Shown piece by piece: positions 3,020 to 63,662 of a stretch of DNA of 64,000 nucleotides. Location: the NCBI RefSeq assembly GCF_006345805.1, contig NC_043012.1, forward strand, positions 53,692,001 through 53,756,000, written 5' to 3'. The notes under the pieces are model-generated. The model made no database searches and had not been told where the DNA came from. It saw only the letters and a program-made list of their open reading frames with translations. Origin of the DNA: Octopus sinensis (Eukaryota). The position numbers and the translations under genes are program-made. How positions within the stretch are numbered: the first letter of the stretch is position 1; each line of letters starts with the position of its first letter.

Positions 3020-3379
3020 AAATCAATGTGACGGCGAAAATTATAGAAGGTACAGGAAGTTATAAGCCCGGTCGTCCAAACAGAACATACATCGGTAAAG
3101 TTTATATTAAAACTGCCAATATAGAAATAATGATAGCAACACACCAAATAGTATTCAACGGTAAACGCCTGATTTGGAAACATGAAACAGATATCGCCTT
3201 TGCTGGAGCATCCTGCGAAGTGAATGGAAAAGGGAGGTTTGTGGAAATAACAATTAATCCTGGTTTAACGTTTCTTATCAGACGGGACTTATACGCACCT
3301 ATGGGCCCTAAATATGGTTATTTAGATTTCTTCCTCATGAACGACGATGGATTCTCTCCAAAAGTATCTGGAGTTATCG
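3020..3379 (+). CDS. ITIH-like gene A exon, C-terminal domain (QINVTAKIIEG...YLDFFLMNDDGFSPKVSGVIG)
   Basis: ctcaacAG acceptor, G|gtgagt donor, 360 nt, phase 1-1; resembles the ITIH 'LGFY..D...FS..VHGLLGQF' segment. Confidence 0.88.
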
Positions 3380-23741: not shown

Positions 23742-24157
23742 GTATCTTTTCGGTTTGAACGGCAGTTTTTTCTAGCGGTGTCATATGAAATTTTCACCCA
23801 TAATTATGACCCTAGTATCGATCTATTGCATTTCAATCTCTTTTAGGGTTACGGTTAGGGGTGGGGGGAAGGGTATCTTTTTTTCTTCACAAATGTAAAT
23901 AAACCCAATCTGTTTCTTAAACGAGGGACATATTCATACGGCACATAATGTTTTTACCTCAATAGACGTCATTGATTGTTGAAATTGCAGAAATTGAAGA
24001 AAAACAACAACAAATATCTTACAAACTATAGAATTTTCTCAATAAAGCCAAGAGAAAAAGATGTTTTATAAACACATTCTACCAGTATACGAAGTTTAAA
24101 AGTGTTTAGTTGCGTGGAAATTATTTTAAAAAACTGCCGTTCAAACCGAAAAGATCC
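23742..24157 (-). mobile_element. Same MITE, inverted, flanked by a 19-bp duplication
   Basis: TIRs present; TGTATTCCTTCAGTTTTAT at 23723-23741 and 24158-24176. Confidence 0.9.
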
Positions 24158-24369: not shown

Positions 24370-24568
24370 GGCACAGGTGTGAGTGTGTGGTAAGAAGCAT
24401 GCTTCCTAGTCACATGGTCGACGGTTCAGTCCCACTGCATGGCACCTTGGGCGAGTGTCTTCTACTATAGCCTCGGGCCGACCAAATCCTCGTCAGAGGA
24501 TTTGGTAGAAAGAAACTGAAAGAAGCCCGTCGTTTATATGTGTGAGTGTGTTTGTGTGTGTGTTTATG

Positions 24569-24632
<64 letters not shown>

Positions 24633-24860
24633 AGTGTGTGTGTTTACGTGTGTGTGTCTGTGCTTGTTCTCCACTACCGCTTGACAACCAGCGTTGGTGT
24701 GTTTGCATCCCTGTGACCTAGCGGTTCGGCATAAGAGACCGAAAAGCCATGCTCTAAACATAAGTACCGGGGTCGATTCACTCGACTAAAAATTCTTAGC
24801 GATGCTCCCGCATGGCCGCAGTCTAGTGATTGAAACCAATAAAAGATTAAAAGATAAAAG
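24370..24860 (+). mobile_element. SINE family 1
   Basis: A/B boxes, (TG)n, tail. Confidence 0.85.
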
Positions 24861-25287
24861 ATGTATGTATGTATATATGTGTGTGTGTATGTATGTATAT
24901 GTATGTGTGTATGTGTTTATATGTATGTGTGTGTATGTGTGTGTGGTATATGTATACACACGCACACACACATGTAATGAAACACTCCAACGTTGTTGCT
25001 TACTTAGGAAATTTATGCGTAGGTGTGGCTGTGTGGTAAGTAGCTTGCTTACCTCTGTCGTGGATAGACGTTTTTTTTTTTTTTTTTTTGGCAGTGAGTC
25101 AAACGTTTTGTTGAAGGTTGGATAATTTTTCTGTTGGAATTGTTGTTTATTGTTGAATATTTTCGAACTGCTGATCATTGTCGAACTTTTAAACTTTGAA
25201 AACTGTTGTGCTTTTCCCCGGTGACGGGAGAAAGTAATTGTTGAAATATTGAACTTATTAATATTATTAATATTGAACTTATTAAAG

Positions 25288-25655
25288 CCGTTGTAGGCTT
25301 TATTGTCGTGCCCCACCTATGCAGCGGGGGATTTGAATTGTTATCCTCATTAAGAGGGAAAAAATAATATAGGTTTCCCGTTTTGAGGGATAATCAATTT
25401 ATTATTGCATGACAAATTAAAGTTTAGCCGTTGTAGGCTCTATTGTGACACCCGCCCCTAGCGTGGGTGAGATTTGAACTGTTGTCCTCGTTGTGAGGAA
25501 AAAAATATTATAGGTTTCCCGTTTTGGGGGAATCTGTATTTTTATTATTGTGTGGAAAAAAATTAATTTCGAACGTTGTAGGGGTGGGATTTGAAGTGTT
25601 GTCCTCGTTGAGAGAAAAAAAAAGTGAAAAATTATAGGTTTCCCTTTTTCTGGGA
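25288..25655 (+). repeat. Three ~140-bp tandem monomers in the LINE 5'UTR
   Basis: Repeated CGTTGTAGG...GATTTGAA.TGTT.TCCTC...TATAGGTTTCCC. Confidence 0.85.
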
Positions 25656-25724
25656 TTAAATTGTGTATAAATTTATTCCGAATGAATATGTCGGTCGAAG
25701 TAATTCAAGAAACAAACCAGCTGC

Positions 25725-26392
25725 ATGAGCCAGCAAAAAGTTCGCGGCAGTAGTCGCTGTATCGTGTAGAAATGTAGTAATACAAACGGAGAAGCTCTCC
25801 GAGCTTTTTGAGAAAATGAAAGAGGAGGGTGGGGTTATAAAGATCTCACCCTCCTCTAGTGCTGAAAATATGAAGAGAAGGATGAACGTACTGTCCTTCA
25901 TCGAAAAAATTCAAGCACTTCGAAAAGGCCATGCACACACCGGTTTCAACAGAAACAAATGCACCCATCCCCTCTGAAGTAACAACTCCTCTGGAAGACA
26001 TCATGGAGGTGACCGAGGGGGAGTTCAAGACACCCAGGAAAAAGAGAACGCTTGCACCTTCCCCATCCATATCCCCCACAAAAAAGAAGAAAAATAAAAC
26101 ACCGCAGAAAAAAAAATTTCCCGCTCCACTGTCTCAGAAGAGAAAATAAAAAAGAAAAATAGACGGAACAAAAACCCTGGTAAAATTTGATACTGGGGAT
26201 AAATATATCATGGACACGTTAAAGAACCATCACATTGTGGAACTGTTGCAGCGGCCAGAAGGCACGGAAGAGAGATGTGCCTGGATACCTGAAAAACTGT
26301 ATAATGAAATGAAGGGTAGGCATCCGAGAACCATCACGAACATCTCGGACCTTCCGCGGTATTTGAAGGAGTTTTTGGAGAAGCAGGAGTAA
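25725..26392 (+). pseudogene. LINE ORF1 remnant (frameshifted, basic/Pro-rich)
   Basis: Broken ORFs 25931-26149 and 26210-26392 between the 5'UTR and ORF2. Confidence 0.5.
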
Positions 26393-26486
26393 AGGACTGC
26401 CTCACGTGTGGTGAGGTCAGCCTAGCATCACCAATAAAAGAAAAAGTCAAAGAGTAAGTAGAACCCTTGCTTTTCTTTTGTTTAAA

Positions 26487-29400
26487 ATGACTGCACTTAA
26501 CCTTGGGTGTTTGAATGTGCGTGGTCTGAGCTCGAAGTGGAAGCAAGCTTGTTTCCTCGACGACCTCAGATCACACGATATGCATGTGATAGTTGCTACA
26601 GAGACCTTCTACAAGCCTTCTCACCTCTCCTGAATGACTATGCGACAATCCTGTCACCAAGCCGGACCGGAGGGCGAGTGGGTGTAGTAGTAATGGTTCG
26701 AAAATGCTTGGCTCTGCAGACAAGTACAGTCTATATAGACCCAGAAGGTGGGCTGGTCGTCCTTGATGTGACATACAGCATTAAGGCCTTCAGGTTGATC
26801 GGGATCTATGCACCTCGTGCTAGAGGATTTCAAACTGATTTTTATCGACGCCCAGAGAACTCTCTCGTGCCGTCGAAGTCATTAGTGGTGTTAGGTGACT
26901 ATTACGCTACCGTTGACGCACGCATCGATAGCGTTGGCTCGATCTATAGGAAAGTAAACTCACGTCTCGTAGATCTGCTCAAGCGTTTTAACCTGGCAGA
27001 TCGTTACAGACTTGACACTCCGAACGTCTCAGAGTGGACTTGGATGAGTGGCGACGGCAGGGTCAAGTCCTATTTAGATAGGATAGTGATAAGAACTGGA
27101 GATAAGTCTAGTTTTAGCTGTCCACAGCTTGTCCAAGTAGCTTACACTGACCATAGAATGGCTAAGTGTAGACTGGACATAGATAGTACAGTTAAAATAG
27201 GATCCAGCAACTTGAAGCTGAACAAGTCTATTTTGACTTGCGAGGCATACAGTAGCCGGATTGAGGAATTAGTACAGAGGGCGTTAACCAGGGCGGTGGT
27301 TAATAACCGATGGTGGTTCGCCCTCAAGAGAGCTATTCGTTTTGAGTCTATTAGGTTTAGATGTCAGCTAAGACTAGATAAGACCAGAATTGAAGGGCAA
27401 CTAGTTAAGGACCTACAGGAGGCGTCGAAGTTGGGCTCTGCATCTCACATTTTGGCAGCGAGAATGGCCTTGGACCGTCACCTCAAAGCTAAACATGAGA
27501 GGTGCAGAGTTCGAGCTGAAGTGCGAGCATAGGACCGTGAGGGAATTAATGTTGCCGGATGGGCCCGTACGGTAGAAACCCAGCGTGGCAATGATGCCAC
27601 AATTAGGTCTCTCGTGGATGAAATGAGTGTTCGGTCGATGGACGGGACGAGATGTGTGAGACGATTCACAAGCACTTTACCGAGTTGTTTATGAATGGCG
27701 GGGCACTGGATCATGGCGAGGCTCTTAGGGACTTCCTGTCTGGCGGCCGCGTCTCTCGGCACGAGAGGCTAAGTGCTGTGAAGCGCCAATCACGGCCGAG
27801 CAGGTGAATAAAGTACTGGGCGAATGCCCCGGGGAGAAGTCGCCGGGTCTCGATGGTCTGCCTTACGAATATTACAAAAGTATTCCAGACTTGTTCGGGG
27901 ACCTGCTGGACAGCATCTACGCCAATTGGCAGCAGAATGGGAGAATTCCCAAGTCTGCGAGCGGAGGGGTGGTGACGTCGCTCAGGAAGAACCTGAGGGA
28001 CGAAATAGGGAACTTCAGGCCCATAACTCTGCTGAACACAGAGTTAAAGATTTTGGCCAAGGTGCTAGCGAAAAGGTTGGCGCGGGTCATCGACAAACTT
28101 GTCGGGGAAGCGCAAACGTGCGCTATCCCGGGCAGGACGATCCACGACAATCTCTACCTTATACGCTACTCCATAGAGAGGGTGGGGAAGCTTTCTGGCG
28201 CAGGGGGGGGGCACCGGTACATTTAGACCAATCTAAGGCATTCGATAGGGTCGACCATCGGTACTTGGCGGCGGTCTTCGAGAAGGCTGGCCTGGGGCCG
28301 ACCTTCCGCGGTTGGATTGCTGCGTTGTACAGCGACATCGAATCCGTCGTAAAAGTGAATGGTTTCATTTCGAAGCCATTCAGGATCGAGCGCTCAATGC
28401 GTCAGGGGTATCCTCTGTCCCCGCCGTAGGACGGAAGGTACTGTTAAGCTGCTTCGGGCCAGGCCTCCAGATAGAGACAAACTGGAATCAGGTGGCCAGC
28501 AAGGTGACTGCTCTAACCCAGACCTGGTCTGGGCGGGAGTTATACTTGCTAGGAAAGGCGGAGGTGGTGCAGCTGTTCATAGCATCGGTTATACCTACCG
28601 TGTGACCGTGGTGCCTTGCCCCGACTTGTGACTGAACAAGTTGGAGAGAATCCTTTTCCGCTTTTTGTGGAAGGAAGGAAAGCCACTCGTGAAGCGCTAT
28701 GTCTGCTGCCAGAAACCGCTAAAGGGTGGGCTTGGGATGCCTTGACTGAGGATACGAAAGTTCGCGTTAAGGTTGAGACACCTCTGGCTTTACCTGGATG
28801 GAGAGCAGGTGTGGTCATCGCATGTTCGGTTCTACCTTCCGCAATTAACTTCCTTAACGGACATTGGTAATTGGATCAAGCAAGACCTCGGCATGGGAAT
28901 GGCAATTGGAATGCCGCCAGGCACTTCAGCTACTCTACTGGGCGGGCCACGCCAGCAATAGGAGTTCCACCGCGGATTTCTATAGTGGGTTAGTGGAGGT
29001 AAAGTCTGAAGACGCCTCGGGGGAGACCCTGGGCTACGATGAAAATCAGTTAATCGGCCTTTTCCGGAGAACTATCGGCCCGATGTATCTGGACAATTAC
29101 CGGAAATCCCTGACTTGGCAGTACTTCCGTGCGGCATTACCTGTTCGTGATAAATTGTCAAGGCACGGAAGTGCCGTCTCGCCGACATGTCCGAGGTGCG
29201 GGCAGGACAGGGAAACTGTCTTGCACGCATTTGTGGAATATCTGGAATTAACGAGACTGATAGTTTTCGCAGAGCAACAGTTGCCATCGATGGAAAGAGT
29301 ACAGCTATCAGCTGAATCTATCATCGAGATTGTGCCACCTCCTTCCCTTAACAGGGATTGAAGGCTTGCTTTTTCTGCGTAGTAGCCATACTGAAAGAAA

Positions 29401-29555
29401 CAGTATGGAAGACGCGTGTGGGAGGCATAGTGTCGGGTACCTTTCTATCCGGCCAGGGGTTGGTTAGCTTTTTTAGTTACCACATCAGTAGTAAGATCAG
29501 GCTGGAGAAGATGGAGCCTGTGGCGATGAAGCTGGGAGTGTTCGGCACCGGGTAA
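26487..29555 (+). pseudogene. LINE ORF2 (APE endonuclease + reverse transcriptase + CxxC-H knuckle), disrupted; the YADD region is deleted
   Basis: MTALNLGCLNVRGL, IYAP, VLGDY, SYLDRI, TDH, KSPGLDGLP, NFRPITLLNTELKILAKVLA.RL, LDQSKAFDRVDH, RQGYPLSP then a jump to post-RT sequence near 28425; CPRCGQDRETVLH. Confidence 0.9.
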
Positions 29556-29973
29556 GTGGAAGCCAAAAACAGGGAAGAAAATGCAAGGGGTCTACCCTGG
29601 TGGTCGGATGCCTATCCTTCACAGAAGCCATTACAAATTTTATTTCTAATGAGCGACGCTTAAGTCGAAAATTATAAATATATTCATTAAATTATAGTTT
29701 TTTTTTTAATTGTAAATATTTAATCGCTACAGCTACTTCACCCTTTTATGTTTGTCTGTTCTTGTTCGTCCGCTCTTTGTATTGCCTTCATGGCAAATAC
29801 TTATGAAATAAATTAGCTTGCTTACGAACCACATGGTTCTGGGTTCAGTCCCACTGCGTGACACCTTGGGAAAGTGTCTTCTACTATAGCCTCCGGCCGA
29901 CCAAAATTTTGTGAGTGGATTTGGTAGAAGGAAACTGAAAGAAGCCCGTCGAATACATGTATGTATGTATGTA

Positions 29974-30004
<31 letters not shown>

Positions 30005-31419
30005 GTGTATACGTTTGTGTGTCTGTGTTTGTTCCCCAACATCGCTTGACAACCGATGCTGGTGTGTTTACGTCCCCGTACCTTAGCGGTTCGGCAAAAT
30101 GAGACCGATAGACTAAGTCCTAGGCTTACAAAGAATAAGTCCTGGGGTCTATTTGCTCGACTAAAGGCGGTGTTTCAGCATGGCCACAGTCAAATGACTG
30201 AAACGAGTAAAAGAGCAAAACTTTGAAAATATTCCTGCTACACTTCTACAATTGTTTTCTATGCTCTCTCCGTGCGTTATTATAACTTCTGACTGATAAT
30301 AAACGAAAGCGAGAAAATCGAATGAGCGTCGGAGTAAAACTCCATCTGGAATAAATAAATTAATAAATTCTACTAACTACATGTATACTCTCCCATGTAT
30401 AGACAAATCCACACATTCAACAGATTGATATATCTATAATTATATCTGGGGATTGCAGTTAGAAAGGTACAAGTCTGGGTAAGGTTGTTTATGGAAAACC
30501 AGCAGTCGCCCATGCATGCTAGCTCTTCTCCACGTCACCGATGTTATCCGAGGGAAAGGCAAAGACTGATACAGCTTGCCACCTGTGGCGTCACAACCCA
30601 TTTCCACAGCTCAGTGAACTGGAGCAACGTGAAATAAAGTATCTTACTCGAGAACACAACTCACAGCCCGGTCTGGGATACGAACTCACTACCTCAAGAT
30701 TATGAGCCTATATATATACACACACACACACACACAGAAAGAGAGAGCAAGAGGCGAGCTACTATTAGTTTCTTGCCATGAAGACATAAGGTACGTTATC
30801 AAGACCTCTCTAGCTACGTGTTTCCCTGACAAGAAACCATTGATAGCTCTTATGTTCATACAGTGTACATCAAATGATATTTATCTCTCATTGGAAATGA
30901 GTACCTTTTTGTTGGTCTTACCTTAATAAAACTGTAACCCCCTCTCCCCCCCTCTCTCTCTGTAATCTGACTTTCTTCATAACACAAGCACAAAGTAGTT
31001 TGTTTTCTATACACAACTCCATTTACGAAATAAACATTCGTCCTCTAACGTAGATATGGTTTATAGGGGTAAATTTAAGACACTTAAATGAAGAAATACC
31101 GTTTTTAAACATTCAAATCCATCACTACCCACCTCATACGTGGGTGGCAATTATGGGGAATAACTATTTAACATATTCATTATAGAGTTATACCCCTTGT
31201 GAAGTATATCCGGCCTTACAGCTTAGCTGTTCCTTTTTTTGTTTTTTAATGTAATAAAATTAGGCTAAACAATTCCAAACGCTGCCAACCGACAGCGCAA
31301 TTGTCAAGCATGCTCGGGAAGCAAAAACGTTGAGAGAACTACTAAAGAAAACTAAGTTATATTCGTAGCTTTGAAACAGAACTGCTGTGCACAAAAGAAG
31401 AGACACACGCACTGACATG

Positions 31420-61939: not shown

Positions 61940-62357
61940 GGATCTTTTCGGTTTGAACGGCAGTTTTTTAATATAATTTCCACATAACTAAACACTTTTA
62001 AACTTCGTATACTGGTAAAATGTGTTTGTAAAACATCTTTTTCTCTTGGCTTTATTGAGAAAATTCTATAGTTTGTAAGATATTTGTTTTTTTTTCCTTC
62101 AATTTCTGCAATTTCAACCAATCAATGGCGTCTATTGAGGTGAAAACATTCTGTGCCGTATGAATATGTCCCTCGTTTAAGAAACAGATTGGGTTTATTT
62201 ACATTTCAGAAGAAAAAAAAAGATACCCTTTCCCCCACCCCTAACCCTAACCCTAAAACAGATTGAAATGCAATAGATCGATACTAGGGTCATAATTATG
62301 GGTAACAATTTCATATGACATCGCTAGAAAGAACCGCCGTTCAAACCGAAAAGACCC
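61940..62357 (+). mobile_element. Telomere-repeat MITE, perfect 8-bp TSD GAATAATT
   Basis: TIRs; TSD at 61932-61939 and 62358-62365. Confidence 0.92.
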
Positions 62358-62469: not shown

Positions 62470-62542
62470 TCCTCGGTAGTATAGTGGTAAGTATCCCCCG
62501 CCTGTCACGCGGGAGACCGGGGTTCGATTCCCCACCGGGGTG
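62470..62542 (+). tRNA. tRNA-Asp(GTC), variant or pseudogene
   Basis: TCCTCGGTAGTATAGTGGTAAGTATCCCCCGCCTGTCACGCGGGAGACCGGGGTTCGATTCCCCACCGGGGTG, close to the eukaryotic tRNA-Asp consensus; extra C before the anticodon stem, C-A mismatch in the T stem, U1-U72 mismatch; TTTT at 62561. Confidence 0.85.
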
Positions 62543-62567: not shown

Positions 62568-63662
62568 GGCGCAGGAGTGGCTGTGTGGCAAACTACTTCA
62601 CCCCATATGTTTGTCTGTCCTTGTATGTCCCCCTCTATGTAACGCCTTAATGGTGAATTTTCATGAAATAAATTAGCTTGCTAACCTCTGCCGTAGAAGG
62701 ACGTTTTTTTTTTGGCGGTGAGTCAAACGTTTTGTTGCACGTTGATAATGTTTCTATTGTTGAATGTTTATTGTTGAATATTTTCGAAATGTTGAACATT
62801 GTTGAACTTTGAAAGCTTTTGTGCTTTTTCCCGGTGACGGGAGAAAGTAATTATTGAAATATTGAAATTATTAATATTGAACTTATTAAAGCCGTTCTAG
62901 GCTTTATTGTCGTGAAGCGGGGATGGCATTTGAACTGTCATCCCCATTAAAAGGAAAAAAATATTATAGGCTTCCCGTTTTTTGGGATAAGCAATTTATT
63001 ATTGCGAGAAAAATTACATTTTAGCCGTTGTAGGCTCTATTGTGGCATCCGCCACTAGTGTGGGCGAGATTTGAACTGTTGTCCTCGTTGTGAGGGACAA
63101 AAATATTATAGGCTTCCCGTTTTGTGGGATTCTATATTTTATTATTGTGTGAAAAAAAAATTGATTTCGAACGTTGTGGGCTTTGTTGCTACGTCTCGCC
63201 CACCAGTGGAGGTGAGATTTGAACTGTTGTCCTTATGGTGAGGAAAAAATATTATAGGTGGCCCGTTTTGGGGATTCTGTATTTTTATTATTGCGTGGAA
63301 AAAAAAATTAATTTCGAACGTTGTCGGCTCTGTTGCTACGTCTCACACCCCAGCAAGGGTGGGATTTGAACTGTTGTCCTCGTTAAGAGGAGAAAAAAAG
63401 GAAAAAATTATAGGTTTCCCTTTTTCTGTATATATATATATATATATATATGTGGATGTGTGTGTTTGTCCCCCTCAACATCGCCTGACAACCGATGCTG
63501 GTGTGTTTATGTTCCTGTAACCTAGCGGTTCGGCAAAAAGAGACCGATAGAATAAGTACTAGACTTACAAAGAATTAGTCCTGGGGTCGATTTGCTCGAC
63601 TAAAGGCGGTGCTCCAGCATGGCCGCAGTCAAATGACTGATACAAGTAAAAAAGTAAAAAGA
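62568..63662 (+). mobile_element. Composite: SINE1 head (62568-62588) + LINE 3' stub (~62593-62673) + target TAGCTTGCTAAC + LINE 5'UTR with 4 monomers (62686-63428) + SINE1 3' half (~63455-63662)
   Basis: Stub aligns to 29732-29813; 5'UTR aligns to 25053-25655. Confidence 0.9.

What the first reader, a model, noticed from the sequence alone, without database searches (positions are those of the whole stretch)
25017..30215. Tx1-type LINE that appears to target one site inside a tRNA-derived SINE
Seen: the 4.76-kb LINE splits a SINE head between its A and B boxes and duplicates exactly 12 bp (TAGCTTGCTTAC at 25041-25052 and 29814-29825). Uninterrupted SINE copies (e.g. 4761) carry this motif once. 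The same site is used again at an independent locus 37 kb away (see next finding). Known: Tx1-clade APE elements are often target-specific (Xenopus Tx1L/Tx2L in DNA transposons, Keno in U2, Dewa in tRNA-array spacers, Kibi/Koshi in microsatellites). Inference: this family uses an abundant SINE as a dispersed safe-harbour target, a parasite of a parasite that also breaks the SINE's Pol III promoter. I do not recall this being described for cephalopods.
Basis: partly seen in the sequence, partly recalled or inferred. Interest (0 to 1): 0.85.

Follow-up and report, generated by a model that had tools for sequence, protein, structure and literature searches.

The report
Jumping gene that targets a SINE
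In this octopus-like genome, hundreds of copies of a LINE jumping gene and a shorter partner sit at the same base inside an abundant short repeat (a SINE), likely because the LINE's enzyme cuts there and its RNA likely carries a few SINE bases that seal the joint, which adds a SINE to the known landing sites of such elements.

Summary
Confirmed and extended. The decayed 4.76-kb LINE (25053-29812) splits a tRNA-like SINE head between its A and B boxes. Across the genome, 91 of 94 other 3' ends of ORF2-bearing relatives, chosen without regard to flanks, sit at the same base. Copies truncated at many different points still abut the SINE's 5' part, so these are separate insertions, not one duplicated unit. 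The family duplication is 13 bp (15 with a shared AA); this copy shows 12.

New here: (1) part of the 5' 'duplication' comes from the donor element, not the target (32 of 32 A upstream against 23 of 32 downstream; one non-SINE site carries 7 SINE-like bases); (2) successive families occupy old, middle and young SINE subfamilies; (3) an ORF1-only partner shares the 3' hairpin tail and the site; (4) a related family ends in (TC)n instead.

L1 group is shown; Tx1 clade is likely but untested. Tx1 elements targeting other transposons are known; ten literature searches found no SINE target (Repbase not searchable). This scan noted similar cases in three other genomes (unchecked). 'Safe harbour' is untested, and only about 1% of SINE sites are hit.

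The parts
25017..25039 (+). 5' part of the host SINE head, with A-box-like TGGCTGTGTGG at 25026-25036
   Evidence: SINE heads align to genomic tRNAs at z 4.8-5.9
25040..25052 (+). upstream copy of the 13-bp target (the distal part is probably donor-derived in this lineage)
25053..25690 (+). LINE 5' UTR: T run at 25071-25089 and imperfect ~145-nt repeats (68% alike)
   Evidence: Tandem Repeats Finder found none
25750..26422 (+). ORF1 remnants, centre deleted (intact relative L131: 467 aa with zf-CCHC)
26487..29549 (+). ORF2 remnants: APE endonuclease, RT (YADD region deleted), zf-RVT
29783..29812 (+). conserved 3' tail: 4-bp stem with 5-nt loop (29783-29795), then AATAAA; no poly(A)
29813..29825 (+). 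downstream copy of the target; first base T where the family has G
29826..30215 (+). 3' part of the host SINE: B-box-like 29842-29852, body, (TA/TG)n middle, tail
62568..63654 (+). second locus: SINE 5' part (62568-62591), 81-nt LINE 3' fragment, target copy (62673-62685), LINE 5' 740 nt, then SINE middle and tail

Best explanation
This is a dead copy of an L1-group (likely Tx1-clade) LINE lineage whose copies sit at one base of a tRNA-like SINE head throughout the genome, likely because its APE endonuclease recognises and nicks that site. Inferred cycle: (1) a Pol II transcript starts a few bases upstream of the element, inside the upstream target copy, and runs past the terminal AATAAA into the SINE. 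(2) ORF2p binds the 3' hairpin tail and nicks the bottom strand at GGTAA^GTAGC; the position is uncertain by 2 nt because AA is shared. (3) Reverse transcription starts at a fixed base, probably helped by pairing of the tail and read-through bases with the primer, so no poly(A) is copied. (4) The top strand is cut up to 13 nt downstream. Full-length cDNA carrying the SINE-derived leader anneals there and overwrites part of the upstream target copy; truncated cDNA gives duplications of 0-13 bp or small target losses. An ORF1-only partner with the same tail likely borrows ORF2p. Shown: site, orientation, independence of insertions, donor origin of part of the 5' repeat, the partner, the hairpin. 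Inferred: nicking chemistry, transcript ends, annealing.
For: 91 of 94 non-redundant 3' ends at the site (three rows corrected by hand), including all 38 RT-selected copies that keep a 3' end, of 40 fetched. 83 of 83 young-family 5' ends follow target-like sequence. About 20 of 35 truncated or broken copies, 89-919 nt long, abut the SINE 5' part, three with a 13-bp repeat. Paired ends: position 11 is A in 32 of 32 upstream copies but 23 of 32 downstream (sign test p=0.004); an extra T in 11 of 32 upstream, 0 of 32 downstream, and in 18 against 51,408 intact SINEs. Non-SINE insertion L017 carries 7 SINE-like bases between its own target repeat and the element. 113 of 121 junctions have exactly three terminal A. 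Hairpin pairs hold in 110-118 of 119 ends, with one compensatory change. Precedent for annealing at both ends in R1 and R2 (PMC2718515 passages; PMC3774820 abstract).
Against: No biochemistry and no transcript ends: the runs found are contigs whose RNA status is a guess. The leader at a non-SINE site rests on one locus; L032 and L060 were ambiguous. 10 of 83 young-family 5' ends carry T at position 11, so overwriting is not universal. The extra T is not clustered on the copy tree (8 changes against 9.4 shuffled), so it may arise by slippage at the joint, not be inherited. No donor SINE bases were shown at any off-target 3' junction, so 3' read-through pairing is unproven. Tx1 membership was not tested against a reference.
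Confidence: 0.8

Rival explanations
1. Targeting comes from tethering to Pol III machinery or open chromatin on SINE heads, plus a short TAA^G preference, as for Ty3 or TRE5-A near tRNA genes (recalled), not from long sequence recognition.
For: Off-target sites share little more than TAA^G (L190, L193, L194) or TAA^NTAG (L017, L065, L084). L193 lies in what looks like a second SINE family's head. Two loci lie beside true tRNA genes.
Against: No element end joins tRNA-Asp although it shares GTGGTAAGTA with the target (1 match, not tRNA). ARAGORN found no tRNA in the 25 loci. Two of 100 junctions are inverted at the mirror motif of the imperfect palindrome GTAAG...CTTAC. The related family ends in (TC)n, as expected if the endonuclease sets the target.
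Confidence: 0.12
2. LINE plus SINE halves are one composite unit copied together by retrotransposition, duplication or gene conversion.
For: Both SINE halves flank most full-length copies; L080/L081 and L045/L050 are true duplicates.
Against: Different truncation points with fresh target repeats; unrelated outer flanks and varying SINE 5' ends; host SINE bodies differ 5.8% from the majority while young LINE copies mostly differ 0.6-1.5%; head-to-tail tandems separated by one target copy.
Confidence: 0.02
3. Targeting is partly RNA-guided: SINE-derived leader and trailer on the RNA select the site, and are refreshed from each new host SINE, which explains why families follow SINE subfamilies.
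For: Each family's 5' leader matches its main host subfamily (TTCC, TTAC, TAAC). The extra T is commoner when donor and target differ (6 of 8 against 5 of 23, p=0.012).
Against: Availability over time explains the succession without guidance: the young family also uses TTAC hosts (9 of 33). Off-target insertions with clean repeats need no homology beyond TAAG.
Confidence: 0.15

Closest known systems
Tx1-Mar, Tx1-9_AMi, Tx1-8_Crp (crocodilians) and Xenopus Tx1 in Tx1D (Kojima 2015, PMC4494074; abstract, passages, sections 15-17 read)
   Same: APE-type L1-group LINEs inserting into another dispersed mobile element; a non-autonomous partner (SINEU) shares the target and forms tandems around one target copy.
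   Different: Those targets are DNA transposons or LTR elements, with two preferred regions in Mariner-N4. Here the target is one base in a tRNA-like SINE head, about 97% of ORF2-bearing copies, and the partner is ORF1-only.
Kibi and Koshi, Keno (Tx1 clade; as described in PMC4494074)
   Same: The related family in this genome ends in (TC)n like Kibi; Keno shows single-site targeting of a small-RNA sequence.
   Different: Target here is a SINE, not a microsatellite or U2 gene; relationship to Kibi or Keno not tested.
R1 and R2 elements in 28S rDNA (PMC2718515 passages; PMC3774820 abstract)
   Same: About 14-bp duplication, precise 3' joints, and target-derived sequence on the transcript proposed to anneal at the 5' joint.
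   Different: Different clades, tandem rDNA target; no Rfam ribozyme matched the 5' ends here.
HAL1 half-L1 elements (PMC5753468 passage)
   Same: Non-autonomous, ORF1 only.
   Different: This partner's ORF1 is only 27% identical to the LINE's, shares just the last ~30 nt, and is target-biased.
tRNA-gene-targeting elements: Dada DNA transposons (PMC8869645 passages); NeSL-1_TV, LIN15 and LIN25 (PMC4640811 passage)
   Same: Insert inside tRNA-type sequence.
   Different: Other enzymes; they hit true tRNA genes, which was not seen here.

Membership tests
L1 group of non-LTR retrotransposons | ORF2 with N-terminal APE endonuclease, RT and C-terminal zinc motif, closest to L1 | tested here: met
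   PF03372, PF00078, PF13966; human L1 ORF2p E 3e-65 against R2 1e-20
L1 group of non-LTR retrotransposons | TPRT marks: fixed 3' end, 5' truncation, target duplication | tested here: met
Tx1 clade | RT groups with reference Tx1 elements | not testable with these tools
   No named Tx1 sequence came; the tree has no Tx1 reference
Tx1 clade | ORF1 of RRM/CCHC type rather than Transposase_22 | tested here: met
   zf-CCHC; Atlas look-alikes with ZCCHC3-type RNA-binding domains at 0.90; such ORF1s in non-mammalian animals are called consistent with Tx1 in PMC5203782. RRM not hit by Pfam directly
Tx1 clade | Target preference (over 20% of flanks, Kojima 2015 criterion) | tested here: met
   91 of 94
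tRNA-derived SINE (host) | tRNA-like head with A and B boxes at tRNA spacing | tested here: met
   Best z 4.8-5.9 against 34 genomic tRNAs of 7 amino acids; Rfam tRNA model did not hit it; parent tRNA not fixed
tRNA-derived SINE (host) | High copy number, dispersed | tested here: met
   51,408 exact and 59,159 near-exact 31-mers
Octopus OK/OR1/OR2 SINEs (Ohshima and Okada 1994) | Sequence identity to a published consensus | not testable with these tools
   Paper not held; resemblance to OK is recalled only
SINE-LINE partner pair | Host SINE shares this LINE's 3' tail | tested here: not met
   No BLAST hit between LINE and SINE tails; the SINE is a target, not cargo
HAL1-like element (partner) | ORF1 present, ORF2 absent, in several copies | tested here: met
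   L208 57-2313: ORF1 hit E 2e-18, no ORF2 hit; 11 of 25 further loci show ORF1-like hits within 2.2 kb of the tail and no ORF2 hit

The most novel reading that the evidence does not exclude
A LINE lineage that left microsatellite targets and became bound to a SINE: its RNA starts and ends in SINE sequence, uses those bases to help choose and seal the site, and renews them from each new host, so its targeting has followed three successive SINE subfamilies and now supports its own ORF1-only hitchhiker.
Probability: 0.2. Interest if true: 0.85.

Novelty: new variant of a known kind. Interest (0 to 1): 0.62.

Why it matters
It adds a SINE head to the targets of site-specific APE retrotransposons, with hundreds of copies to read mechanism from. 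Natural polymorphism in the target shows which bases of a 'target-site duplication' come from the donor, a question studied mostly in rDNA elements. Close relatives with different targets (about 75% identical RT; SINE against (TC)n) give a tractable pair for finding what sets APE specificity. SINE subfamilies also date the LINE families. The effect on the host or on the SINE population is probably small.

Tried and rejected
Donor origin of the second base of the downstream repeat: rejected; the GA variant belongs to an older SINE subfamily (8 of 8 hosts continue TTCC or TTCCT). True tRNA genes as targets: none found; only tRNA-Asp was tested genome-wide. 5' ribozyme: no Rfam match; four of five 5' ends fold no better than shuffles, the partner's at z -2.4. 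Extra T as a lineage marker: not clustered. SINE head against the window's tRNA-Asp: not significant (38 against shuffled maximum 44). Expression: no RNA holder on record; contigs only. Named Tx1 references: none obtained. L032 and L060 as further off-target leaders: undecided, no matching 3' end found in L206 or L207. Twenty more distant relatives (67-70% RT identity) were not examined, so their targets are unknown. Ohshima and Okada 1994 and Christensen 2000 were not held. Earlier-findings look-ups by place, sequence and a second word set found nothing.

Full report
Observation. The window is G000:C16:53692001-53756000 in a 2.72-Gb genome. The best named RT relative is from Argonauta hians at 64%, so the host is probably an octopod (inference). 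The 12-mer is at 25041-25052 and 29814-29825 as stated. Removing 25053-29825 restores a SINE 80-83% like four intact copies in the window. The insert has a 5' UTR, ORF1 remnants, and ORF2 remnants with APE, RT and zf-RVT domains. It is dead and 86-90% like its nearest copies.

Genome-wide 3' ends. Three searches that ignored flanks were used: this copy's tail (251 candidates, 40 scored, 30 loci), the second locus's tail (110, 40, 30) and an RT fragment (150 matches, of which 40 top and 20 more distant were fetched). After dropping the two window loci, two duplicates (L081, L147) and two copies with no 3' end (L159, L160), 94 remain. The script scored 84 SINE body, 6 tandem, 4 off. By hand L074 is a decayed SINE at the same base and L015 and L131 swap classes, giving 85 SINE, 6 target plus another element, 3 off (L017, L065, L084). 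A looser tail pattern counts 632 ends, control 1. Of the first 100 listed, 83 match the next 10 target bases with at most 2 mismatches (hand count). I fetched the other 17: 6 are decayed SINEs at the same base, 2 are inverted at the same site, 1 lies in what looks like another SINE family, 8 are unrelated. Seven of these last 9 belong to the partner described below.

5' ends and independence. All 83 young-family (B) 5' ends follow target-like sequence; 24 of 27 do in the window's family A (hand count). Of 58 tail-anchored loci, 21 run beyond the fetched DNA and 35 are truncated or broken; 22 of the 35 show SINE-head sequence at the break, 20 after removing one tandem and one look-alike, at lengths of 89-919 nt. 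The SINE part ends anywhere from 9 bases before the site to 13 after; L009, L015 and L026 have 13-bp repeats. Several of the other 13 are broken by later insertions. This excludes a co-copied composite. One contig from a run of another organism label (X13) spans SINE head plus LINE 5' end, a hint that the arrangement is shared.

The site. The junction is AAATAAA then GTAGCTTGCT(T/A)AC; 113 of 121 have exactly three terminal A. Off-target repeats are 11-16 bp after TAA. The target is an imperfect palindrome, which fits the two inverted insertions. The last ~30 nt hold a 4-bp stem kept in 110-118 of 119 ends per pair, a variable 5-nt loop, and one T-A to C-G change in family A2 (one event, 3 ends unanchored).

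Part of the 5' repeat is not copied from the target. In 32 family-B copies with both ends, position 11 is A upstream in all, but downstream A in 23, T in 8, C in 1 (L152 corrected for one extra A). An extra T stands upstream in 11, downstream in 0 (p=0.0003), in 26 of 83 5' ends (hand count), and in 18 intact SINEs against 51,408. At non-SINE site L017 the target's own 13-14-bp repeat ends in TAGCT and is followed by 7 SINE-like bases before the element. The simplest reading is a transcript that starts inside the upstream repeat. R1 and R2 give precedent. Against a simple inherited leader: the extra T is scattered on the copy tree and 10 of 83 ends carry T. T runs near the 5' ends argue against Pol III read-in (inference).

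Succession. Among 41 intact heads in my loci, the GA/TCC type differs 18% from the majority, TTAC 7.8%, TAAC 2.9%. Hosts: old partner copies 5 of 5 scorable GA/TCC (of 11); family A 23 of 25 TTAC and no TAAC; A2 20 of 22 TTAC; B 23 TAAC, 9 TTAC, 1 other of 33. Availability over time is enough to explain this; preference is not shown.

Relatives. The six SINE-targeting RT rows form a clade (97/97). Next come L172 and L166 (94/95, not starred), then family C, with P0001 and the Argonauta protein outside. Most family C copies end in AATAAAGAAATA followed by (CT)n. A switch from a microsatellite target is possible, not shown. Downstream of L131 sits a 2.26-kb element with an ORF1-like frame (27%), no ORF2, the same tail and the same site; 11 more loci look the same. 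It is HAL1-like and its targeting is looser.

Known and new. Kojima 2015 lists Tx1 targets in piggyBac, Mariner, Harbinger and LTR elements, U2, U5, 5S, satellites and microsatellites, and no SINE in the parts I read; its figure 3 and supplements were not seen. Ten searches gave no report of a SINE-targeting Tx1 or of this family. Passages of PMC8967140 and PMC10294476 mention L1-Tx1 in cephalopods without targets; passages of PMC4824008, PMC4758252, PMC3747384, PMC4640811, PMC8869645, PMC5753468 and PMC5203782 were also read. Repbase Reports and subscription journals, including Kojima and Fujiwara 2004, were not searchable, so priority is uncertain; Dewa is recalled only. Three unchecked notes of this scan describe L1/Tx1 LINEs at one site of tRNA-SINE heads in other genomes.

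Verdict. Real, well supported, a new variant of a known kind. Interest 0.62.

Noticed in passing
window 29813 and 62673: Both window junctions have T where the family has G; none of the 94 other loci or 100 listed junctions does. The two LINE tails are only 79% alike. Unexplained; a short conversion tract is possible.
   Followed up: partly
window 62470-62542; L156 (two tRNA-Ser): A tRNA-Asp gene lies 25 bp upstream of the second locus and shares GTGGTAAGTA with the target. Three tRNA genes in 931 kb of partly overlapping loci; enrichment not tested.
   Followed up: partly
L190 (G000:C2:24828250-24830350): A 285-bp insert with a tRNA-like head of another SINE type, the LINE's last ~30 nt and a 16-bp repeat: a chimeric retrocopy or a SINE moved by this LINE.
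   Followed up: no
L208:57-2313; L016, L064, L068: ORF1-only partner; its 5' ends carry a GCGCATGCGC-like motif and the L208 5' end folds at z -2.4.
   Followed up: partly
L161-L180: Young related family ending in (TC)n, with matches about 5.5 kb apart on C2, C3 and C5 that suggest tandem arrays.
   Followed up: partly
L123:906-916: Family B's 5' UTR holds an internal copy of the target with the extra T, which might template the extra-T joints.
   Followed up: no
window 3022-3378: Exon-like frame matching the inter-alpha-trypsin inhibitor heavy chain C-terminus (PF06668, E 1e-9).
   Followed up: partly
window 61947-62355 and 24001-24156: MITE-like element with terminal inverted repeats; a 156-bp piece recurs inverted at 95.5%.
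   Followed up: no
window 24375-24846: An older, intact SINE copy (69%) lies 170 bp upstream of the host SINE.
   Followed up: no
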